Source: the human T2T-CHM13v2.0 reference genome, Homo sapiens. Taken from it: a stretch of 64,000 bases of DNA. The notes under the pieces were generated by a model, which was given only the letters and a program-made list of their open reading frames with translations, ran no database searches and had not been told where the DNA came from. The stretch lies in assembly GCF_009914755.1 (NCBI RefSeq), contig NC_060939.1; one strand, 5' to 3'. Of this stretch, positions 13,915 through 32,165 are shown piece by piece (the stretch's first letter is position 1; each line of letters begins with the position of its first letter). The translations under genes and the position numbers were made by a program.

Positions 13915-15650
13915 AAAGTTAGGTTTACTGAGGTATAATTTACATGCAGTAAAATCCACTCGTTTGAGATATATTGTTCTAGAGTTTTGATCAATATAAA
14001 CAGCTATGTAACCTCAACCACAACCAAGATATAAAATATTTCCATCTCACCAAAGTTTTCTCGTATTTCTTTGCAGTCAATTTCCTCCTCCTGTAACTGA
14101 CTCAAGTTCAACTGCTCACTGTTAGAAGTCAAAGTATGAGAAATGAGGTGTGACCAAAGGGAAACAGCTTTTATTCAAACGCTAGCAGATGGGGAATGTC
14201 CAGACTCGTGCTCTTAACAGACTATTTCAAACTTTAGGCCGTGGACAGGGGTTTAAAGAGGGGAACTTGGAATGGAAGGCATGCAGGAATGGTGCTGGGT
14301 ACGAGGTCTGTGTGTCTTGTTCCACTGGTTATCCTGAGTCATGGTCCACTTGGAGTGCAGGCTGGCATCATCTCAACAATGGTGAGGCTGTTGACTAACT
14401 GCTCTGAGGTAATCTCTAGAATTTCACACCTGGGTTTCCATGCCTGGTTTATCTCAAGATTAGCCCCTGCAACTTCTGGGCACATAATTAGATAAACTAC
14501 CAGTGCACAAGAGTGTCTGGTGGGAAGGCAGGGAAACAAAGAGTATTAAGGTATGTTTCAAGGCTAAAAGGAAGAAAAGGAAGAAAAAAAAGTCTCAAAA
14601 TGCATTTTGAACCTAAGCTGCTCAGTTACATCCTCCCAGCCCCGATCCCTGGCAACCACTGAACTGAATTCTTTTCTTATTGTTTTGTCTTTTTCAGAAT
14701 GTTATATAAGGAAATCATGTAGTATGAACCCTTTCGTTTTCTTCTTATTTAGCTCAATGCTTTGGAGATCCGTCTGTGCTGTTGTGTTTCATGCATTCTT
14801 TTTTTTTACTAAGTATTATATGATATACATGTACAAAGAGTCGTTTGTCCATTCTATAGTTGGTAGACATTTTGGTTGTTTCCAGTTTTTGGTAATTATG
14901 AATAAAACTGCTATAAACATTCAGGAGTAAATACTTAAAAATATAATTGCTGGGCCATATGATAGGTTTAAGTTTACTAATGTTATAAGAAACTACTAAA
15001 CTACTTCAAAAGTACAAATTTTACATTTCTACCAGCAATGTATAAAAGTTTCCATTACTCTGCATATTCACCAGGACTGGGTATCAGTAGTTTTGTGGGC
15101 TTTTAAAACATTTTATTAAATCTAGTAGTTGTCTATTTGTACCTCACTACAGTTTTAATTTGCATTTGTCTGGTGACCAGTGATGTTAAGCATCTTTTCA
15201 TGTGCTTATTTGTTTCACTCTTCGGTGATATGTCTGCTACATGTGTGTTATGTATTCTGGATACAAGAATCCTTTATGAGATATGTGCTTTTCAATTATT
15301 TTATTTTATTGTATGTTTGTCTTTTCATCCTTCACAATGTCTTTTAAATAATAGAAGTTTTGTGATAAAGCTCAGTTTAACAACATTTAAAATATTTGTT
15401 TGAGTCTTAACTAAGAAATAGTTTTCTAACCTAACACACAAAGCTTTTTGATTTTCTTCTAGAAATGTTATGGTTTTAGGTCTTAAATGTAGATCTGTGT
15501 TTCATTTTGAGTTAAATTTTTATATGATACCAAGTATAGGTCCAGGCTCATTTTTTCACATATGGTTGTCCAATTGTCTCGTATCATGTGTTTAAAAAGT
15601 GTACCCTTTCTCCATTGAATTATCTTGGCAATGTTTTCAGAAATCAATAG
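13915..15650 (-). mobile_element. Ancient L1M (L1MD/ME-like) 3' region, interrupted by an LTR
   Basis: tttactgaggtataatttacat... 3' end; ttccagtttttggtaattatgaataaaactgct; tgatgttaagcatcttttcatgtgc. Confidence 0.75.
14092..14630 (-). mobile_element. ERV-type solo LTR (family not assigned)
   Basis: inverted termini TGTAACTGA...TCAGTTACA; minus-strand AATAAA near 14170; flanked by tcctcc on both sides; interrupts an L1M. Confidence 0.8.
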
Positions 15651-15845
15651 ACTATATATATATAGACAGTCTCTCTCTCTATATATATAGACATATATAT
15701 ATAATATGTGGGTCAAAGCAATTACAAACAAGAAGAAATATCTTTTATATTTACCTTCATTTTTACTACTTCCAACACTATTCATTTTTTGGTGTGGATA
15801 CAAGTTTCTCTGCAATATAATCCTTCTGCCTGAAGAACATCCTTT

Positions 15846-16138
15846 TTTTCAGACTTCTCAAAAGAAGAATTATTTATTTCTTTTCGTGTGTGTGTGTGTG
15901 TTTTATTTCCATAGGTTTTTGGGGAACAGGTGGTATTTGGTTACATGAGTAAGTTCTTCAGTGGTGATTTGCGAGATTTTGGTGCGCCCATCACCCGAGC
16001 AGCATACACTGAACCCAATTTGTAGTCTTTTATCCTTGACCCCCTTACCACCCTTTCCCCGAGTCCCCAAAGTCCATGTGTCATTATTGTGGCTTCACAT
16101 CCTCATAGCTTAGCTCCCACTTAGGAGAACATACGACG
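15846..16138 (-). mobile_element. 5'-truncated L1PB 3' end with extra 3' sequence
   Basis: ttggggaacaggtggtatttggttacatgagtaagttc is an L1PB 3' UTR; 15-bp TSD TGAAGAACATCCTTT at 15831-15845 and 16139-16153. Confidence 0.85.
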
Positions 16139-17265
16139 TGAAGAACATCCTTTAATCTTTCTGGTAGCACAGGTCTGCTTGCAACAAATTCTCAGCTTTT
16201 GTTTGCCTTGGCTGAGCTGGGTTTGGGTTTTGTTGTTGGTAGAGCTGTCTTTAGTGCAACACAAACTTCAGATTCCTCTACAGGTGTGCTACTAAGGTCT
16301 TGTGCTTAGGGGAGAGGCACAGGACCTGTGTCTCAGTAGTGGGACTTCCTCATTATTCTTTTCCTTCCTCTCATGGCCACCAGCTCTGCCTTATCTTTGT
16401 GATTGGTCTAGGGACACAGTTTCCTACCCCCTTCCAGGACTTCCTCTCATAATCTGCTTGATATCAATGAAGCCTCCTTTGCCCAAGAAATTCCCTGTCC
16501 TTCCTACAGTGGCAAAGAGTTTTTTCCTTTACCCTTCCTCCCTTACCATTCCAGCAGCAATGGATCTTTGCCTTTGTTCTGGTATTGGGATAGTTTCCTA
16601 TCTGTTACCAAGAAGCAAACAAGCTTTTCTTCTGGCCCTCCCCTAAAAACAATAATTCTTTGCCTGTGTCCAGGGACAAAAGAGTTTGATGATCCTCCCC
16701 AATGTTTTAAGACTTTTGATTTGTAGGAGAGAAGGGGTTAGAAAATTGCACTTTATGCCTGTCGCCAAGAATCTACTAATCACATGAACATTTGAACCAC
16801 TGCTGTGGGTGGTGGGTGAGGGGGATTTCTTCAGTCTTCTCTCCTGCCCCCAGTCATTTTCTTGAGCATCCAGTGAAGGCCTACAAGGGAGTGCAAACTC
16901 ACTTGGTGTCTGAGGCCCCCACCTATGACAAACTGACACACTAACCCATATATGGCCTTTAAAAAAATTTAGTTGATTTCTTCTTTCCCATTGATATGAT
17001 GGCCACCTTTCTCTTCCACTTTGCTAAATGTGAAATCGTTAATGTGCTTTCTCTCCTTGGAGAATCTTGTTTCTCTTTGCTATTCAGATTACTTGATTGC
17101 CTTTAAAATTAGCTCTATGATGGTTTTAGAAAAAGTCATGGTTTTGTGGATTATCCAGCTTTTTCTCATGGTTAGAGTGGAAATGAGGTTCTTTGCAGTT
17201 TTCTATATCCTAAACCTACCCCTGTGGTTTTGATGTGTAGTATTTAAGTTGTCTTTAAGGTATAA

Positions 17266-17586
<321 letters not shown>

Positions 17587-21702: not shown

Positions 21703-22096
21703 ACAAGTTTGTTCTTAATATTTGCTACAGTGGTGTCTCTGCCCCAGGGGTCATTAAGCTGCTGAAGTTGTAAAACTCTTCTCCAAATAATTTTTACTAA
21801 CAGAACTGAAGTCACAAACTGTTAAAATCAAAGTAAATATGTCATGCTCACAATTTCTTAAGGAAATCCAGGACTCAGTTTTCTGAATAGACTTCACAGA
21901 AAAAATATGTATACAGCAAGGCCTGACTAAAAATACTGGTTCTCTCCTTAGTATAAAATTACACTGATAAATTGTAGGCTATTCCCTGCTTGATGTTATA
22001 CTGGACATCTCCCACCCAAAGCCAAGATTCTCACACCTACTTGTCCTGATGAAAGTCAAACGCTTTAAAAAGTTATTTTTCTCTTTAAAAACTAGC

Positions 22097-22102
22097 TTTA
22101 TT
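22097..22102 (-). terminator. PYGO1: Candidate distal polyadenylation signal of PYGO1 (AATAAA)
   Basis: tttatt on +; lies near the far edge of the long, repeat-poor AT-rich block that follows the stop codon; use is inferred. Confidence 0.6.
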
Positions 22103-25100
22103 TAAAAGAATCTGAACCATAATAACACTATAGGAAACAAACTTACAATACATATTATTCAAGAAAGCCTGCCATACATCATTTCTACTAATGGTAGGTC
22201 TATATACTGATAAACAACATTCCTTATACAACGCACAAATAACATTAAGCATTATCCCTGAAAAGAATGGCCAACAATAACATGGACTGTCTTGACAGCA
22301 GAACGTCTACTTGTCTTCTTACTTATCTATAGAATAAAAAAACTAAAATGTAGATGACAAATTAAACTCTTCCAATTTTAAATTCTAGCATGGTTTTTGG
22401 GGAAGAAGGGAATGGGATCAGAAGACGCAAATTGTGTTAAATATCTCAAAAAGAAAAAGGAGAATTGGCTTACCATTATTTAAGTAGTTACTATGAAGTA
22501 ATTCAGAATTGAGAATGTATTTAACACTTGGAAGCCCTTAAAGAGTCAAACTTTCCATTATCTACTATATTCAATCAGTTATCAAGCCAATTTCATTTGT
22601 CTGAGAATTGTAACCTGGTCATTAACCAAAAAAAAAAATAAACAATTTGGGGTAATCTAGTCATTTCATACTTTATTTAAATTTTTCCACAAAGCAGTTC
22701 ATGAATTAATAATACTTCTTTAGACGTCTATGATCTAAATAGAAACAGACTCAGTTCTAAAAGAATGTATGTGAAAATAGCAGACAAAAATAAATCCCTA
22801 ACATGTAATACTAAATTTTTAACATAAAATATAGAACTATGAAAATTTTGGGCATTCAAGTCAAATATAATAGGATTATGATACAGTATGGTATCTAGCG
22901 TTTTAAAAAATATTAAGTCTGAATCAGATTTATTGCTATATCAATCCTATCAATAGTCCACAATCAAAAGTACAAAATATACCATAACCATGCCGAATAT
23001 GATGCAGTATAGAGATATCATTAACATAACATAGGTAGACATTTTGTAATATACATCACTGACATAGTAAAACCTTATTAAGGATAATTTAAACTGATAT
23101 GTCTAAAATTTGAATTTTTAAAAAGATATGCAGTTTAAGCACTCACAAGCCTTCATTTTTTTCTTTCAAGTGTATGATTTCAAATGTACAAATTTGCATT
23201 GGCCAAGTATTACTTATTACAATTCTTTTGGGTACTTGTCTTAATGACAAAATAAGAATGCTTTTAAATTACTATTCTTAAGTAAACACCTCTAAATAAA
23301 AAGCTTAAAAATTTGCCTTCAAGATGAAACATTTTTCTTTAAAATCGTGATTATAACCTTTATTACCAAATCCTTTCATTAGGTAGTACCAAGTAAACAG
23401 CATTCAAGTCCTTGAATCAATGGTTAAAAATTCCAGGTAAATTAGAGGAGTCTTACGGTATCTTAATCATGTCTAAATAAATGAAGATAAATATTACAGT
23501 ACTACTTATTTTGGTTATGATGAAGTGAATGATGTCTTTTTTGGTTGGGAAATATCAGCGCAAGTTAAAAGTTACTATATAATTTTAGTAGTATGTGCTA
23601 AAAAATCCTAATATGCACTGCCATTTAAGGTAATTATTTAGTAAAGTATACCTGTAAGTGGAAAATAAAAATTTTAAGATTTATTGTATTACAAGTGTCA
23701 TGAGTTGGTAACACTAAAATTTACTCCTCTCCCATTTGAAAGACATCAGGCCATCTATTAATCCATAAATATTGATGTTTCACATACTTCATAGAGTAGC
23801 TTAAAACATACCAGCATAAGAAATAATTAGTATTACATAGTAATTTCCTTTGCCATAGGAATAAATGTTGGACAAAGTCTGGAAACATTTTTTTTTCCAA
23901 TTTGAATTACAGTAATTTTGCCACAGACCACAGCACTAGTGCATGTGTTACTTTAGACATGTTCTAAGAACAAAACAAAAAGTTACTGCAAAAATACATG
24001 TCACCAATGTGGAACACACTCAGATTTGTATAAAAGTACTGAACTAATATCCCAAAAAGAGGTATATGTAAACAGTACATAAGGAAGAAATAGTTTTAAT
24101 ATGAAACAATCATTTAAGTCACATACATCATGATAAGAAGCAGGACTTTCTTTTATAAAAGATAATATTTTGACAAACAAGCAACATCATCTACACATCT
24201 ACAGAACAAGAAAGGTACAGGTATTTAGAATAAGTTTTAATATAATTGCAAGTAATGTATTATTGACAAAATATGACAAAGATGCTTATCCACTGAGTTT
24301 CATCAAAAGTTTTAAATTAAATACAGGCAGCTCTGATGTATTAACGCCTGGCATATACATGGCCACAGTCTTTCCTTCATTTCCCCTATACCACTTGTCT
24401 TGGGAGATGTTAATGCTATCCCTAGCCTCTTTGCTCCAGGGGTGCTTCCAAATTCCCATCACTGTACCATAAGTTGGAAGATGCAGATGTGACTTTTATA
24501 ATGCTCTACTGGATAGAACAATAAGCTACTAAAAATTAGAAATGAGAAGAAAATCTCTAAGTTCAGAATTAGAGGAGAGGAAGCTGTGAAAAGTCACAAC
24601 AGCCTAAAGGAAACTGGAAGTACCCTCAGACAGTACCAGCTAATTCACTAAATGTACTGCTTCCCATGGTATCTGAAATGCGGTCATATTGTCTGAAATG
24701 TTAGATATTAAAGATTCATTCTTAATAAACATACTTTTTTAAAAAAGAAATTTAATGACACTTTTCCCACTATCTTCATTCATACCTTAGTAGAAAATGC
24801 TTTTCTCTTAAAGTCTAGCCAACTACTACTGCCACACAAAGACACAGGATTTCTGATGGGAGGAAAGATATAAAATGTTGAAGCACAGAGCACCCAGGAG
24901 AGGAAAAGCCAAGGCTGCTTATACATTTCACCAGAGTTTAGCATGGTAAGGGGGCAAATGCAAAGAAACCCACACCAAAGAACTTAACCTCCTAATCACA
25001 TCAGGAAAAAGACAAGACCTCTGCTTCTTTCTCCCTCCTACACTGATTGATTGGTTTCCTAAAGAAAACTGAGAGTTCAGCATGATACTATTAACTAGAT

Positions 25101-25827
25101 TATGGTCTAAATGAGCCTTTAGGAGCTTCCCTATTGTGTAGAGTTCCAAGCCACTATTTACAAATGAACTTAGGGAGCCTGATGCCTTTAAATTTTTTTT
25201 TAATTGAAAAAGATATAAAACAGCACAAATGTCCATGCATAAGAAACCTCTATACACGGCAGAAAGAAATCCAAAACTCTTGAGAACTCCCTTTTAAAAA
25301 ATCATTGCTTATATATTTTCTTACTATTAAATACAATTACTATAGTACATTGAACAATAAGTGCTAAAACTCTAATTTGTTCGAGACAAACAAGTTTGAA
25401 AGAATATTGAATGAAGACTCTTGATACTTATTTGGATTAAAGTTGGCAGATTTTATGATGACCCACACTATTAAGAGGTTTTTCTGCCACTAGGCAGAGT
25501 TGGGAGTCTAAAACAAACCACCAAAAAACTAGATTTCTTTACACTGTGTTTATGAAGAATAAGCACTAGTACAAGAAAATCTTTAGTTTTATGTATATAA
25601 CCTTCTAATTTGAATAACAATTATAGCAGTACTCTAAAGTATTTCACACAAAAGGAAAACACTGATCACAAATCTAATTCTAAGCACTCTGTCTGAAGAA
25701 CAATTTATCTTTCACAAGCTGAGCTGTTTCAGTATTAGTGAATCGAGTAACACCTAGAAGCATGTGGACCACAAATTCTCTAGTGCATGAGCAAGTCAAG
25801 TTCTGAGAAAGGAACTGATGCTTTTTA

Positions 25828-26173
<346 letters not shown>

Positions 26174-26265
26174 TCAATAACCTAGCTTTGGTGAGTAAAC
26201 CTAGATGCTCATAGTTAGCCAGGTTGAATTTAAGCAAAACTCAAGGATGTTGGAGAAACTGTGGG

Positions 26266-26291
26266 GTGTGTGTGTGTGTGTGTGTGTGTGT
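26266..26291. repeat. (GT)n microsatellite
   Basis: visible dinucleotide run. Confidence 0.95.
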
Positions 26292-27417
26292 AAGATGAGG
26301 ACTTTCAGTGAAGGAAAGGGATTATACCAAAAAAGGTACAATTCCACCTGTGTTTTTTTCCATCACTGCATATTTTTAAAGTTGAAGGCAGCTTATCATT
26401 TATCCTAAGAAGCCATTTCAGTTTGTATAATAGCCTTCTTCAGACAAATTATCATCTGGCTATTCTTACAGTTCATCACTTATTCCATCCAAAAGCATCT
26501 ATATAACTTTTGACTTAGCATTATGTAGAGACAAATGTAGAACTAGCAGGAAAATTAATTCAAACACATGAACGCTATTCATCAGCTATGATTACAGTTT
26601 GGCTATGATTCACTATCAGAATGAACCGTGAGTTTTTCTTTTGAATATTTACAGATTCTTATTTAAGTAAGGTGCTTTGAAGACCTAAACACCTGAATAA
26701 AAATTCACCTGTTTGTAGGTTTTTAAAAACAACTATGTGGAAATAGAAAATGAATTATATTGCATAACACATACCTTTAGACTAGCTTGGGAGAAGTTAT
26801 TTCATTTTCACAAAAACAGCTAACTACTGAAACTTAAAGAGATAAAGGGTTTAAGAAACTGCATAATTGATTTTAGTAATGATCACAACTCAAGTACTAC
26901 CATGTAAAGTGTTAACTCCTGAGAACACTGGAAAGTTCTACTCAAAATATCTATCATCTAGCTCTATTCAGGGTAATAATAAATCATGATCTGATGCTAC
27001 AACTAGGCATACAGCATACAGTGCATCATTTATTAAAAATCAGCACTCATTAAACTTTCAGGAGCAACATAACTAGGTCCTTAAACATTTAGAGAAATAT
27101 GTATAACAAAAAATCCAAGTAAAATGAGATCTTCAAGTACACTACTGAACACCATCAAATGCCTGTCAGCCCAAAATACTGCATTTTAACCTGCTTCAAC
27201 TGGTAAAGTTTTCACACAAAGGAGTACCTAGAAGTATAGTTTATATCATTTTGTTTCCTAAAATTGTAAAGATAAATATTTTACAACTACTGAAAATATT
27301 TTGTACTCACCTCTAACTAGTCAAGGGTAAATGGAGAAAACCTTGTATTACCTTGTACCATATGAAATTGCTGTTTTTGTAGGTCAAAATTAAAACAATG
27401 TATTTAAAAAAATAAGT

Positions 27418-27423
27418 TTTATT
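27418..27423 (-). terminator. AATAAA overlapping the transposase stop codon (TGAATAAA); candidate alternative PAS for PYGO1
   Basis: minus strand reads ttt gat TGAATAAAac followed by U-rich sequence. Confidence 0.45.
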
Positions 27424-28407
27424 CAATCAAAATATGCATCAGGAGCATGAATAGTTTTCTTCCAACAGAATATTAAAGGTCTAACTTTTATAAAATTCAT
27501 CATTTGTTAGGCTGTATAAATTGTTAACATCTTCCAGTTACTTCATCTCGATTGGGGAATGCATTGTTTCTTAGAAAAAGCTCCAAATGATAGACAGTAG
27601 TCCATGGAATAAAGGTCCAGTGACTAAAATGGACATGACAAAATTTCATAGCCCAAGTCACTTAACTTTGCTTTAGTAGCTTGTGACATGTGAGGTCGAG
27701 TCCTTGTCTGTGAAAGTGTAGGTTCTTGTGTGTTACCCAAAGGACATTGTTTTTAAATCACATTTTCATGCATAATTTAAATTTCTTGATAATATGCTGC
27801 TGCCGTCATTGTTTCACTTGGGTTTAAATAACAGTAATTATTTATCTCTTTCGTAGATCACCACACAATCTTCAGAATTTTTTTGGTTGCAGTGATAATG
27901 GTGGCAACATATTAGGGAGCTTTACCAGCCTCCAATGATTGTATAAATTGCCATTAGTTGTCAAACAGCACACATTTTTTTTTTTTGGCCACAGGTTATA
28001 ATCTGCTCCAAAAATGGATTTCTGCTGTTTTGAATCTTAATGAGCACACCTCCAACTGTCTCCATTCTTGATCATCCCTCGAGAGGGTACTCTCAGGTCC
28101 ATTTTTATACTTTTCCCCAGTCAGAGCGGGAATTCCTTAAGTCTGCTGCAAGGCTTCAAATTGTTGTTTGCAAGTTAGATTTCACTTTGGCTCTTAATTG
28201 ATCTTTGTTTAAAATGGATTTTGATCTCCCCTAGGGTTCATTTTTGAAATTCAGATCCCCAGAACAAGATTTTTCAAACCACCACTGAGTAGTTCTTTTA
28301 CTAGCAGAGCCCTCTAAGGCCAAATGGATGTTTCTACCTTCCTCATCTGCAATATGTCCCAGTTCAAAATTATAAAAAAGTATTCACAATTCTTCTGTGG
28401 ATACTAT
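27423..28407 (-). pseudogene. Mariner transposase relic (multiple stops and frameshifts)
   Basis: manual translation: FYNFELGH..RTTQWWFEK..DQLRAKV..PFLEQIITCG..LNPSETMT..RPHMSQ..LGYEILSCPF*SLDL..WKKTIHAPDAYFD*, colinear with the Hsmar1/SETMAR transposase motifs RTVQWWFKK, DQLRAII, PFLDRIVTCD, LNPGETIT, RPHVAQ, LGYEVLPHPPYSPDL, GSYFD. Confidence 0.9.
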
Positions 28408-28991
28408 AGTATTTCTCTGGAAAACAATAAACAATAACAAGACAACTCAATATCAAAGAAAAGTAGGAGCATAATACTATCATAATTCTAAATAGCACAA
28501 CTGGGAACGTACGTTATACCAACTTTACTAATTGCAGTCAATTTTCAACTGATCTAATATTAGCAATTTCATGTGGTACCATCCACAAGTTAATCAACAA
28601 TACTTACTGAGAATTTACTATATGCTAAGATCTGTCTCGTATCTGTACAAACAGATATCCTGAAAACTCACTTGAAATATGAAATTCATTGATTCCAAAG
28701 ACCCTAGTGGAGGAGGAATCTGGTGTCATACTATTATTTTTTTAATCCATAAAAATGTATGCTTTCCCCCATGTTACAGTTACATATATTATGTTGTGAA
28801 GACGTGTTAAGTGGATCCTTGATAAACTTTTTGAACTAAATCTTTAATATGGTACAACCAAAGTTCAGCACTGAAATACATGTTTTTCAATGATTCTAAC
28901 TTTTAAAAGTTAAAACTTGCCTACATTTGTTATATATTATTTTGAAGTTTCAAGAGGCTTTTATGTTTGTGATAAATAACAACAACTAACA

Positions 28992-28997
28992 TTTATT
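28992..28997 (-). terminator. PYGO1: Candidate proximal polyadenylation signal of PYGO1 (AATAAA)
   Basis: first canonical hexamer I found after the stop (~220 nt), followed by GU-rich tgttagttgttgttattt on the minus strand. Confidence 0.5.
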
Positions 28998-29213
28998 TAT
29001 GTTTCTAAAGCACCCCCATATACATTATTCTCATTTAAGACAGCAAGCAAAGACAATAAAAAATTTGCTCTAGTGATGAAGTGATTAATAAAAACTAAGT
29101 AAATAATGTTTTTGTGTATGCATTTAAAAAAATAATGTAAAACATTAAAATCCTGTGTCAATGAACTTCTGCAATGCACAGGAAAATAAACCCACTTTAG
29201 TTAATGCCTTTGA

Positions 29214-30338
29214 TTAAGCATCACTGCCCACTGCAGATGGACCAAAAGTTTCTCTAGTACGCATTAACTGGACATCTTTGTCAGCCATACAGGTATCACA
29301 GCCCCATACTGCAGATGCTTCTGCAGTTAAGAGGCCATAAGCTGTTTCAGTCATTCCAGTACAGATCCGATGAAACCATTTCTGACAAGAGGCCTCACAT
29401 AAGATGGCATCCTGATCATCGTTCACCTCGTTTGTACAAATTCCACAAGGATACACTGGGTCAGAAGACGAATGGCCATGACGGTTTGGGTGAAGAGAGG
29501 ATTTATTGCTTTTTTCTGTGGTGCAGGCATCTGCTGCACCTCTTGGTTGTCGTGGCTTATTCTGCGTCCCATTTGCAGGGTTATTGTTTGTGGCTTCAGT
29601 GCTACTTGAACGGCTGTTCTCCTGATTTACTGCATTGTTTCGATTAACATTTTTTAATTCAATATTACTCTGATTCACTGTGTCATCCATATTCAAGTGA
29701 GGTGGATGAGCAGAGGAATTTTGATTAGTGTTTTTGGTTGCTCCTTGAGTAAAGTCTTGTTTTGGGGGTGGTGCTTTTGCTTGACCAAAAGTGTTTGGGG
29801 GAGGAATAAAAGAATGATTAGATTCTAACGGAGAAGTAAAATTTGAATTATTTCCAGGAACAAAATTAGATGCCAAATCGGGGTTAGAAACTTGGCTAGC
29901 ATTCTGTGGAGGAATTTGACTGAAATTTTCAGCAGGATTTTGTCTAAAATGTTGATTAGGCATGTTGACATTCTGACTTAGTGCATTATTATAAGATGGA
30001 TTACCGAAACTTGAATTATCATGTGGCCCAAAGTTAAAAGCATGAGGTCGATTAAAACCCATGCCCAGAGGATTCTGAGGAAATGGGTGTGGCTGGTTCC
30101 TGAGTGAGTAAGGACCACAGTATGGGGAAGACATTCTTGGGGGAACGTGAGGTGGCATTCTGAATGTACTATAGCCTCCAAAGCCAGGATAACCAGGGCC
30201 AAGATATGGATTTGACGAAGGTAGTGGTTTATAGGAAATAGTATTATAGTTGTCATCAAATGGATTAGCAGCCACTAGATGGTCAGAGTTTGGATTCGGT
30301 GGTGGAGCATACTCAGACAATGGAGGGAAAGAAGGTCC
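29214..30338 (-). CDS. PYGO1: Pygopus homolog 1, terminal coding exon (374 codons plus stop): NPF-motif N-terminal homology domain, Asn/Pro-rich linker, C-terminal PHD finger
   Basis: ORF 29214-30320 extends in frame to the acceptor ttctcatttcag|GGA CCT TCT (GPSFPPLSEY); ANPFDD motif; C4HC3 PHD YPCGIC...CEASC..WFHRIC...WGCDTC; stop TAA. Confidence 0.98.
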   Translation of the reverse strand, partial: GPSFPPLSEYAPPPNPNSDHLVAANPFDDNYNTISYKPLPSSNPYLGPGYPGFGGYSTFRMPPHVPPRMSSPYCGPYSLRNQPHPFPQNPLGMGFNRPHAFNFGPHDNSSFGNPSYNNALSQNVNMPNQHFRQNPAENFSQIPPQNASQVSNPDLASNFVPGNNSNFTSPLESNHSFIPPPNTFGQAKAPPPKQDFTQGATKNTNQNSSAHPPHLNMDDTVNQSNIELKNVNRNNAVNQENSRSSSTEATNNNPANGTQNKPRQPRGAADACTTEKSNKSSLHPNRHGHSSSDPVYPCGICTNEVNDDQDAILCEASCQKWFHRICTGMTETAYGLLTAEASAVWGCDTCMADKDVQLMRTRETFGPSAVGSDA

Positions 30339-32079: not shown

Positions 32080-32165
32080 CTGTGTATTTGCCTTGCGCTT
32101 TTTCTTATCTGGGCTTCCTAGTTGTACACCTGGTCCTCCTAACCCATCCAGTCCACTATCACCAC
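32080..32165 (-). CDS. PYGO1: PYGO1 internal coding exon (86 nt): (G)GDSGLDGLGGPGVQLGSPDKKKRKANTQ, including the basic NLS
   Basis: acceptor (T)13-ag|GTGGTGAT, donor ACACAG|gtaaac; phase-0 join to the terminal exon gives KANTQ-GPSFPP, as I recall for PYGO1. Confidence 0.96.

What the first reader, a model, noticed from the sequence alone, without database searches (positions are those of the whole stretch)
28384..28450. SETMAR-like capture layout: splice-acceptor-like site at the transposase start is in frame with PYGO1 exon 2
Seen: the minus strand reads ttgtcttgttattgtttattgttttccag|AGA AAT ACT ATA GTA TCC ACA GAA GAA TTG TGA, a U-rich tract plus CAG (AG at 28418-28417) nine nt before a possible decayed start codon (ACT ATA, compare ACT ATG). 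PYGO1 exon 2 ends in phase 0 (CAG|gt at 32080), so splicing exon 2 to this site skips the NPF/PHD exon and enters the transposase frame: the PYGO1 N-terminus with its KKKRK NLS plus RNTIVSTEEL* today, or plus a full transposase before decay. Known: SETMAR arose by splicing a host exon into an acceptor just upstream of the Hsmar1 ATG. Inference: an extinct, or in other lineages extant, PYGO1-mariner fusion, or a current truncating isoform. Frame agreement has a 1-in-3 chance of being coincidence.
Basis: partly seen in the sequence, partly recalled or inferred. Interest (0 to 1): 0.7.

Follow-up and report, generated by a model that had tools for sequence, protein, structure and literature searches.

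The report
Mariner-derived splice acceptor in PYGO1 3'UTR
An ancient, dead mariner transposon in the PYGO1 3'UTR supplies a real splice acceptor, but the annotated splice removes a piece of 3'UTR after the stop codon and makes no PYGO1-transposase fusion protein.

Summary
The minus strand reads ...tattgttttccag|AGA AAT ACT ATA GTA TCC ACA GAA GAA TTG TGA, with AG at 28418-28417. PYGO1 exon 2 ends in phase 0. The frame entered at 28416 is the N-terminal frame of a decayed mariner transposase.

The hub's RefSeq table already lists this site as an exon boundary (22076-28416). The only annotated partner is exon 29196-30338. Its donor, AAA|gtgggt, lies 18 nt after the PYGO1 stop codon. The result is a 779-nt GT-AG intron inside the 3'UTR, and the protein is unchanged.

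The acceptor belongs to the transposon. The same pyrimidine tract plus AG precedes the Hsmar1 ATG at SETMAR and in 13 of 15 Hsmar1 copies examined. Proteins annotated in many non-primate mammals join a C16orf87-like zinc ribbon to an intact DNA-binding domain of this mariner family at the equivalent point.

The PYGO1 copy is dead, with at least 13 stops and at least 2 frameshifts. No PYGO1 sequence occurs in the 150 listed mariner-domain relatives. In one probable orthologous copy the spacing between the AG and the start region is out of frame.

Verdict: a transposon-derived 3'UTR splice site with a SETMAR-like layout but no fusion. Modest interest.

The parts
27348..28593 (-). Decayed full-length mariner element, about 1.25 kb, in the same orientation as PYGO1 and inside its 3'UTR. 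Ends are good to about 3 nt.
   Evidence: The inverted-repeat cores are 18 nt long and 94% complementary. Homology to the chr16 copy ends near 27353, and homology to the chr20 copy starts near 28577. Pfam Transposase_1 matches at E 2.4e-5, and the SETMAR DNA-binding domain at E 1.1e-10. The terminal bases were read against short elements that share the repeat.
28562..28579 (-). 5' terminal inverted repeat core
   Evidence: repeat I1.
27355..27372 (-). 3' terminal inverted repeat core
   Evidence: repeat I1. The same end is seen at 12 other genomic places.
28419..28450 (-). Pyrimidine-rich tract of the mariner 5'UTR, which acts as the polypyrimidine tract of the acceptor
   Evidence: The tract is shared with the chr20 paralog (A1). 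In relatives it is read as LLFVF-type residues (A2). A branch-point-like TTGAT has its A at -37.
28417..28418 (-). AG of the 3' splice site. The first exon base is 28416.
   Evidence: The hub's RefSeq table lists exon 22076-28416.
28402..28407 (-). ATA GTA: one of these two codons is the decayed transposase start codon
   Evidence: Hsmar1 reads AG|ACT ATG. Relatives P0155, P0162 and P0169 have Met here, and A2 aligns that Met to GTA.
28384..28386 (-). First in-frame stop (TGA), 10 codons after the acceptor. Intact relatives have Arg at this position.
   Evidence: The chr20 copy also has TGA here.
28417..29195 (-). 779-nt GT-AG intron lying wholly within the 3'UTR
   Evidence: It starts GTGGGTTT and ends TTTTCCAG, is 71% A+T, and contains 3 AATAAA/ATTAAA hexamers. 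The hub table supplies the two exon ends.
29194..29195 (-). GT of the donor AAA|gtgggt. The last exon base is 29196.
   Evidence: It matches 7 of 9 consensus positions, the same as the exon 2 donor.
29214..29216 (-). PYGO1 stop codon TAA, 18 nt (6 stop-free codons) before the donor
32080..32165 (-). PYGO1 exon 2. It ends in phase 0 and encodes the KKKRK motif.

Best explanation
An ancient mariner transposon inserted in sense orientation into the PYGO1 3'UTR, starting about 620 nt downstream of the stop codon. Like other mariners, it carried a pyrimidine tract and an AG just upstream of its transposase start codon.

The splicing machinery pairs this transposon-borne acceptor (AG at 28418-28417) with a host donor 18 nt after the PYGO1 stop (AAA|gtgggt, last exon base 29196). 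This removes 779 nt of 3'UTR in an alternative transcript.

Both splice sites lie after the stop codon, so the PYGO1 protein is unchanged. The junction is less than 50-55 nt downstream of the stop, so nonsense-mediated decay is not expected (an inference from the textbook rule). The likely effect is a shorter 3'UTR that lacks three poly(A)-signal-like hexamers and four AUUUA motifs. It may equally have no effect at all.

The transposase reading frame has decayed neutrally. Its frame agreement with the PYGO1 donors is most likely a coincidence that arose through later small indels.

Shown: the sequences, the frames, the mariner identity, the homology of the acceptor, and the decay. Taken from the hub annotation: that the site is used. 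Inferred: the pairing of the two alternative exons, escape from decay, and any regulatory effect.
For: (1) The hub's RefSeq table lists alternative exons 22076-28416 and 29196-30338. The exon ending at 29196 needs a downstream exon, and 22076-28416 is the only one listed. Canonical GT and AG sit at exactly those ends.

(2) The stop codon TAA is at 29216-29214 and the donor follows after 6 codons.

(3) Mariner identity is shown by the terminal repeats, by Transposase_1 at 24.6 bits against a cutoff of 24, by the SETMAR DNA-binding domain at E 1.1e-10, and by tblastn at E 1.3e-17 and 2.5e-22.

(4) The acceptor is a transposon feature. At the SETMAR locus the sequence reads ...gtttattttag|ACT ATG. 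The AG is kept in 13 of the 15 Hsmar1-type copies examined. Those 15 were taken from the 30 loci. The self hit, 13 loci of a more distant family and one N-terminally short hit were left out.

(5) The pyrimidine tract is shared with the chr20 paralog.

(6) In relatives of the same family, the fusion proteins diverge from unspliced reading frames right at the end of the pyrimidine-tract translation (A2).

(7) The passages read from Cosby et al. [quoted passage not shown]

(8) Decay: 22 stops in 372 codons of frame 1; 5, 7 and 1 stops in the three aligned segments, which lie in three different frames.

(9) The donor and acceptor are as consensus-like as the constitutive PYGO1 sites.
Against: Use of the site rests on the hub's annotation table alone. 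No reads were seen. The table does not say whether the alternative model is curated or predicted, nor how abundant it is.

The table lists exon intervals, not junctions. A further transcript joining 32080 directly to 28416 would add no new interval and so cannot be excluded from it.

By pyrimidine content alone, 22 of 428 AGs in the 3'UTR score as well as this site. The sequence therefore does not by itself single it out.

No other mammalian genome could be read, so conservation of the two splice sites is unknown.
Confidence: 0.8

Rival explanations
1. One reading: exon 2 (donor at 32080) is spliced to 28416, skipping the NPF/PHD exon. This gives a 55-residue product, made of 45 PYGO1 residues including KKKRK plus RNTIVSTEEL, as a real minor isoform.
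For: Both sites are real splice sites and both are in phase 0. In the four-exon model, exon 29196-30338 is an internal exon of 1143 nt. Skipping it would give exactly this junction. The stop would lie in the last exon. The hub table cannot exclude this junction.
Against: No annotated interval requires this junction. The exon 3 acceptor at 30338 has an equally pyrimidine-rich tract and lies closer to the donor. The added peptide comes from decayed sequence. No data support the junction.
Confidence: 0.12
2. An extinct, or elsewhere extant, PYGO1-mariner fusion protein: PYGO1 joined to the transposase or to its DNA-binding domain, either through exon 2 or through the 3'UTR donor after loss of the stop codon.
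For: The layout resembles SETMAR. There is a host donor just past the stop and a transposon acceptor just before the ORF. Today both PYGO1 donors are in frame with the transposase frame. The same mariner family was captured by another host sequence in other mammals, so its acceptor can support capture.
Against: The TAA stop is intact in human. The ORF is dead. The blastp of PYGO1 exon 2 and exon 3 translations against the 150 listed relatives of the domain (of 185 hits) gave a best E of 0.048.

The probable orthologous reading frames P0022 and P0017 pass through another frame, so those copies are broken as well. P0022 reads the AG region in human frame 2 and the start region in frame 1, so the in-frame 9-nt spacing is not shared. 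The chr20 paralog and the intact relatives have a longer stretch between the tract and the start, which implies the human spacing is derived.

'PYGO' occurs 0 times in the main text of the Cosby preprint. Its Table S3 could not be opened.
Confidence: 0.04
3. The 3'UTR intron is maintained by selection as a regulatory switch. Splicing would remove proximal poly(A) signals or destabilising elements, or deposit a junction complex near the stop codon.
For: The intron holds 3 AATAAA/ATTAAA hexamers and 4 ATTTA motifs. The donor lies only 18 nt from the stop.
Against: The ATTTA density is not unusual: 4 in 779 nt, against 32 in the whole 7138-nt 3'UTR. No conservation or expression data were available.
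Confidence: 0.12

Closest known systems
SETMAR (SET gene plus Hsmar1 mariner transposase, anthropoid primates)
   Same: A mariner sits downstream of the host coding sequence in sense orientation. The acceptor is the transposon's own pyrimidine tract plus AG, directly before the transposase start. The SETMAR locus reads ...gtttattttag|ACT ATG and PYGO1 reads ...tattgttttccag|AGA AAT ACT ATA. The donor lies just beyond the end of the host coding sequence.
   Different: In SETMAR the frame behind the acceptor is open for 344 codons and the host stop is gone. That loss of the stop is recalled from Cordaux et al. 2006, a paper that is not held. In PYGO1 the TAA is intact and the mariner frame stops after 10 codons. 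The PYGO1 element is a different, older family: 35-38% protein identity to the SETMAR transposase part. That SETMAR exon 3 begins at this AG is also recalled, not tested.
KRABINER and the general rule of Cosby et al. (transposase capture through transposon-borne acceptors)
   Same: The acceptor pre-exists in the ancestral mariner, immediately upstream of the ORF, and is used by host transcripts (passages read).
   Different: Those cases join coding sequence to an open transposase domain that is under purifying selection. Here the junction is non-coding.
C16orf87-like zinc ribbon plus mariner HTH proteins annotated by NCBI as 'SETMAR-like' in horse, cats, whale, bats, camel, elephant and others
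   Same: The mariner family is the same. The human PYGO1 copy is the most identical human match to P0009, at 55%. The host/transposon boundary falls at the end of the same pyrimidine tract (A2).
   Different: The DNA-binding domain is intact and about 90% identical between the zebra (P0009, the query) and the elephant, whale and hyaena proteins. The host partner is different, and no human counterpart was seen.
Transposon-derived splice sites and introns in 3'UTRs (general class)
   Same: A GT-AG intron lies entirely downstream of the stop, and one of its splice sites is supplied by a transposon.
   Different: Nothing beyond the particular origin of the acceptor.

Membership tests
Tc1/mariner DNA transposon (mariner) | Terminal inverted repeats about 1.2-1.3 kb apart | tested here: met
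   18-nt arms, 94% complementary, with 1189 nt between them.
Tc1/mariner DNA transposon (mariner) | TA target-site duplication | tested here: inconclusive
   TA follows the 3' end at 27347-27346. At the matching 5' place the bases read GA, or TA if the end is set 3 nt further in.
Tc1/mariner DNA transposon (mariner) | N-terminal paired helix-turn-helix DNA-binding domain | tested here: met
   SETMAR DNA-binding domain 7s03 matches at E 1.1e-10 over residues 11-97. Pfam HTH_48 alone is below its cutoff, at 13.1 bits against 24.1.
Tc1/mariner DNA transposon (mariner) | DDE/D catalytic domain | tested here: met
   PF01359 matches at E 2.4e-5, 24.6 bits against a cutoff of 24, in a second frame. 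The tblastn segment for residues 125-283 has E 2.5e-22. The catalytic residues were not checked.
Hsmar1 family | High identity to Hsmar1 copies | tested here: not met
   31-42% protein identity to SETMAR and the Hsmar1-type copies. DNA searches found only two diverged partial paralogs, at 67% and 69% identity.
Host-transposase fusion gene (SETMAR-like) | Transposon acceptor used by host transcripts | not testable with these tools
   The exon end at 28416 is in the hub's RefSeq table. No reads were available.
Host-transposase fusion gene (SETMAR-like) | The junction joins the host coding frame to the transposase frame with no stop between them | tested here: not met
   TAA lies 18 nt before the annotated donor, and TGA lies 10 codons after the acceptor.
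Host-transposase fusion gene (SETMAR-like) | Transposase domain open and under constraint | tested here: not met
   22 stops in frame 1. Three frames are needed for the alignment. dN/dS across species is not testable here.
3'UTR intron | Canonical GT-AG with both sites downstream of the stop codon | tested here: met
3'UTR intron | Junction more than 50-55 nt after the stop, which would predict nonsense-mediated decay | tested here: not met
   The distance is 18 nt, so decay is not predicted. The rule itself is textbook knowledge, recalled.

The most novel reading that the evidence does not exclude
The PYGO1 3'UTR intron is a frozen first step of transposase capture. A host donor six codons past the stop is spliced to the mariner's own pre-ORF acceptor, and today only one TAA separates the PHD-finger frame from the transposase frame. 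In some mammalian lineage, or transiently in the eutherian ancestor, stop loss or skipping of exon 3 gave a PYGO1-mariner DNA-binding protein. That would be a Wnt co-activator or histone reader tethered to mariner repeats.
Probability: 0.04. Interest if true: 0.65.

Novelty: new member of a known kind. Interest (0 to 1): 0.3.

Why it matters
The locus is a clean human example of a rule proposed for host-transposase fusion genes: mariners carry a ready-made acceptor in front of their ORF. Here that acceptor is used by a host gene but never produced a fusion, so it shows the non-productive outcome of the same process.

It also links the PYGO1 element to a mariner family whose DNA-binding domain was domesticated in other mammals. 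For PYGO1 itself, the practical point is that one annotated isoform differs only in its 3'UTR.

Tried and rejected
- **Pfam on raw references.** I repeated it with X at the stops.
- **Word-indexed protein search.** The frame-1 read-through found nothing. With P0022 as query it found only P0022 itself.
- **More paralogs.** The 5' 361 nt found only itself and the chr20 copy. With the chr20 copy as query, the 39 non-self matches of 40 all lay in query positions 926-1101, outside the mariner part. A family consensus could not be made and was not attempted.
- **Hsmar1 membership.** Rejected on identity, 31-42%. A second, more distant human family gave 24-31%. I did not name it.
- **Extra constraint on the DNA-binding part.** The N-terminal 145 codons align in one frame, but so do the next 159. 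There is no local excess of frame preservation, and 5 stops lie in the first segment.
- **Papers.** Searching 'PYGO1' with 'mariner' gave 2 papers, judged irrelevant from the listing only. Searching PYGO1 transcript accessions gave 2 papers, also judged irrelevant from the listing. The Science version of Cosby et al. and Cordaux et al. 2006 are not held. Table S3 of the preprint is closed. The SETMAR paper PMC8327481 did not describe the birth steps in the passages read.
- **More genome loci.** The other mariner copies found there could not be inspected.

Full report
**What is in the sequence**

PYGO1 exon 2 ends CAG|gtaaac at 32080. Its phase follows from arithmetic. The last coding part, 29214-30338, is 1125 nt, or 375 codons. 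Exon 1, fetched from the same genome, gives ATG, 16 codons and one extra base, so exons 1 and 2 hold 49 + 86 = 135 nt, or 45 codons. Exon 2 therefore ends in phase 0. Splicing it to 28416 would give 45 PYGO1 residues followed by RNTIVSTEEL and a stop.

**The element is a mariner, and the acceptor frame is its N-terminal frame**

- Inverted repeats of 18 nt, 94% complementary, lie at 27355-27372 and 28562-28579.
- Read through with X at the stops, frame 1 from 28416 matches the solved SETMAR DNA-binding domain (7s03, E 1.1e-10, residues 11-97). It matches Pfam HTH_48 only weakly (E 0.11, below cutoff).
- A second frame matches Pfam Transposase_1 (E 2.4e-5, 24.6 bits against a cutoff of 24).
- A tblastn of the open 343-residue transposase part of the SETMAR locus against the element gives three segments:
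  - residues 13-157 on 28383-27982, in the acceptor frame (35% identity, E 1.3e-17, 5 stops);
  - residues 125-283 on 28076-27597, in the +1 frame (E 2.5e-22, 7 stops);
  - residues 288-313 in the third frame (weak, E 2.8, 1 stop).
- The copy is therefore full-length, about 27348-28593, but dead. Frame 1 has 22 stops in 372 codons.

**The family is old and rare in human**

The whole human assembly was searchable.

- A DNA search gave 16 matches: the element itself, one partial copy on chr16 (69% identity, 3' part), one on chr20 in two pieces (67% for the 5' part, 81% for a 60-nt internal piece), and 12 short matches of 35-81 nt to the 3' end only.
- The 5' 361 nt found only itself and the chr20 copy.
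- The chr20 copy used as query found no further mariner copies.
- At the protein level SETMAR is 38% identical, the 15 Hsmar1-type copies examined are 31-42%, and another family is 24-31%. The element is neither of those.
- Pairwise identity of 67-69% corresponds to roughly 0.2 substitutions per site per copy (my Jukes-Cantor arithmetic). That is what repeats dating from before the placental radiation show. The dating is an inference.
- The hub's list of the 20 longest masked stretches contains no stretch that covers this element. It is either unmasked or masked in pieces shorter than 320 nt.

**The acceptor is already annotated, with a different partner**

The hub's RefSeq table lists, for other PYGO1 transcripts, exons 22076-28416 and 29196-30338. 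The second must be followed by another exon, and 22076-28416 is the only candidate listed.

At 29196 the sequence reads AAA|gtgggt. The PYGO1 stop TAA is at 29216-29214, so the donor comes 18 nt later, after six stop-free codons: TCA AAG GCA TTA ACT AAA.

The feature is therefore a 779-nt GT-AG intron (28417-29195) lying wholly in the 3'UTR, and the protein is unchanged. Because the junction is only 18 nt downstream of the stop, the textbook 50-55-nt rule predicts no nonsense-mediated decay (inference).

The intron is 71% A+T. It holds three AATAAA/ATTAAA hexamers and 4 ATTTA motifs, against 32 in the whole 7138-nt 3'UTR. There is no sign of special content.

**How good are the sites?**

- The acceptor has 14 of 18 pyrimidines at -20 to -3, the same as the constitutive exon 3 acceptor. 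187 of 4474 minus-strand AGs in the window are as good or better, as are 22 of 428 in the 3'UTR.
- A branch-point-like TTGAT has its A at -37.
- The donor matches 7 of 9 positions of the recalled consensus MAG|GTRAGT, the same as the exon 2 donor. 142 of 3389 GT sites do as well.
- Both sites are thus ordinary, usable splice sites, but sequence alone would not single them out. MaxEntScan and SpliceAI were not available.

**The acceptor belongs to the transposon**

- At the SETMAR locus, the open frame of 344 codons is directly preceded by ...ctgtttatgtttattttag|ACT ATG.
- I examined 15 Hsmar1-type copies, taken from the 30 loci returned. I left out the self hit, 13 loci of the more distant family, and one hit that starts at residue 35. 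The AG is kept in 13 of the 15; L037 and L038 have lost it.
- The PYGO1 element has the same arrangement: ...ttgtttattgttttccag|AGA AAT ACT ATA.
- Its pyrimidine tract is shared with the chr20 paralog. That copy has lost the CAG and carries 7 more bases at this point (A1).
- This fits the passages I read in Cosby et al. 2020. [quoted passage not shown]
- That SETMAR exon 3 starts at this AG is my recollection. It fits the in-frame TAG that closes the frame just upstream.

**Relatives from other species**

An exhaustive HMMER search with the first 150 codons (X at stops) gave 185 proteins at E up to 0.001, of which 150 were listed. Two groups matter.

*Group 1: short reading frames from unnamed contigs.* P0005, P0022, P0017, P0016 and P0037 share derived residues with the human copy: GRSKSIL, and FKNEP in three of them. 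They are probably the same insertion in other mammals, but orthology is not proven.

- At the first four human stops they carry sense codons. P0022 has W where human has TGA at codon 11. Q stands at codon 62 (P0022, P0005, P0017). C or Q stands at codon 87 (P0005, P0017, P0016). K stands at codon 104 (P0017, P0016). Intact relatives have R, R, R and K at these positions. These human stops are therefore lineage-specific, and three of them look like CGA decay.
- Reading frames are stop-free by construction, so this observation alone is weak. P0022 and P0017 both pass through a different frame in the middle, so those copies are also broken.
- P0022 reads ...LFSREI across the AG. That is human frame 2, identical to the human frame-2 reading LLFSREIL at 28404-28487. 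It then reads IVSSEEL, which is human frame 1. The distance between the AG and the start region therefore differs from human by a number of bases that is not a multiple of three. The human in-frame spacing is not shared.

*Group 2: proteins of about 180 residues that NCBI names 'SETMAR-like' or 'C16orf87 homolog'.* They occur in Equus, Panthera, Lynx, Hyaena, Lutra, Canis, Balaenoptera, Camelus, several bats and Loxodonta.

- They join a C16orf87-like zinc ribbon (PF10571) to an intact mariner helix-turn-helix domain (PF17906). Primate and rodent entries in the same list carry PF10571 only.
- Their mariner part is 46-52% identical to the human PYGO1 copy (A2).
- When P0009 is searched against the human genome, the PYGO1 copy has the highest identity of all 150 listed matches, at 55%; SETMAR has 50%. 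It is the same family.
- In alignment A2, the fusion proteins (...SEKSSPF|TEVNNT...) and the unspliced reading frames of the same exon (P0169, P0007...LLFVFSTEANNTMS...) part company right at the end of the pyrimidine-tract translation. That is where the human copy has its AG. This family's acceptor has therefore supported a real capture, though not by PYGO1.

**The start codon**

Relatives P0155, P0162 and P0169 have Met in ...NNTMS or ...SNAMS, and P0014 has ...NMMSSEEL.

- Anchoring on the nucleotides ACTAT, as in Hsmar1, the human ATA (28407-28405) is the decayed ATG. The chr20 copy has GTG there.
- In the gapless protein alignment A2, the Met falls on the next codon, GTA (28404-28402).

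Either way the start lay 9-12 nt after the acceptor and in the same frame.

**Is there any sign of a PYGO1 fusion?**

- A blastp of the exon 2 and exon 3 translations against all 150 listed relatives gave nothing better than E 0.048.
- This is not a strong negative. The library holds one representative per 50%-identity cluster, so a fusion isoform could hide behind plain PYGO1. Also, 35 of the 185 hits were not listed.
- 'PYGO' occurs 0 times in the main text of the Cosby preprint. Its table of all fusion genes could not be opened.
- The intact human TAA, the dead frame, the unshared spacing, and the longer stretch between tract and start in the chr20 copy and the intact relatives all point the same way. 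The present frame agreement most likely arose by later indels in neutral sequence. It was a 1-in-3 event in any case.

**Verdict**

It is a SETMAR-type layout by homology, not only by analogy. As annotated, it makes a 3'UTR intron, not a fusion.

A low-level exon 2 to 28416 junction, produced by skipping the 1143-nt internal exon of the four-exon form, remains possible and untested.

Noticed in passing
Proteins P0008, P0009, P0154-P0168; human C16orf87 at G000:C16:52599848-52628044: Proteins of about 180 residues join a C16orf87-like zinc ribbon (PF10571) to an intact mariner HTH domain (PF17906) of the same family as the PYGO1 element. NCBI annotates them in horse, cats, hyaena, otter, dog, whale, camel, several bats and elephant. 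The mariner part is about 90% identical between zebra (the query) and the elephant, whale and hyaena proteins.

Primate and rodent entries carry the zinc ribbon only. No human counterpart was among the 150 scored hits, and the normal C16orf87 protein found only the 4 known exons in human. The host part of the fusions differs from normal C16orf87 at several positions, so it may be a separate locus.

C16orf87 is reported as a subunit of the MIER/HDAC corepressor (PMC13133221; abstract listing and passages read). Neither that paper's passages nor the Cosby preprint's main text mention the fusion: 'C16orf87' occurs 0 times in the latter. Its Table S3 was not readable.
   Followed up: partly
12 places in the genome, e.g. 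L010, L012, L016: The 3' end of the element (about 27344-27426) matches 35-81-nt stretches elsewhere at 79-94% identity. In L010, L012 and L016 an inverted copy of the same end lies a few tens of bases upstream. These look like miniature elements of about 80-100 bp that share this mariner's terminal repeats. I could not name the family.
   Followed up: partly
G000:C20:54646488-54647089 (L005) and G000:C16:79405608-79405848 (L002): These are the only two diverged partial paralogs of the PYGO1 mariner found in the human assembly, at 67-69% identity (plus an 81% 60-nt piece on chr20). The chr20 copy shares the TGA at codon 11, which is probably independent CGA decay.
   Followed up: partly
L020:1230-1320 (SETMAR locus): An Alu-like tail with a long poly-A run lies just upstream of the Hsmar1 5' region at SETMAR, where the 5' terminal repeat would be expected. 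I recall this as a known feature of the locus.
   Followed up: no
window 28671, 28990, 28512 (minus strand): Three further donor-like GT sites match 7 or more of 9 consensus positions and lie between the PYGO1 stop and the acceptor: CAA|GTGAGT, AAT|GTTAGT and AAC|GTACGT. None is annotated.
   Followed up: no
window 14051-17324: The hub table lists a predicted misc_RNA described as 'uncharacterized mitochondrial protein AtMg00860-like'. This is an odd name for a human locus and may reflect a retroelement-derived model. I did not examine it.
   Followed up: no
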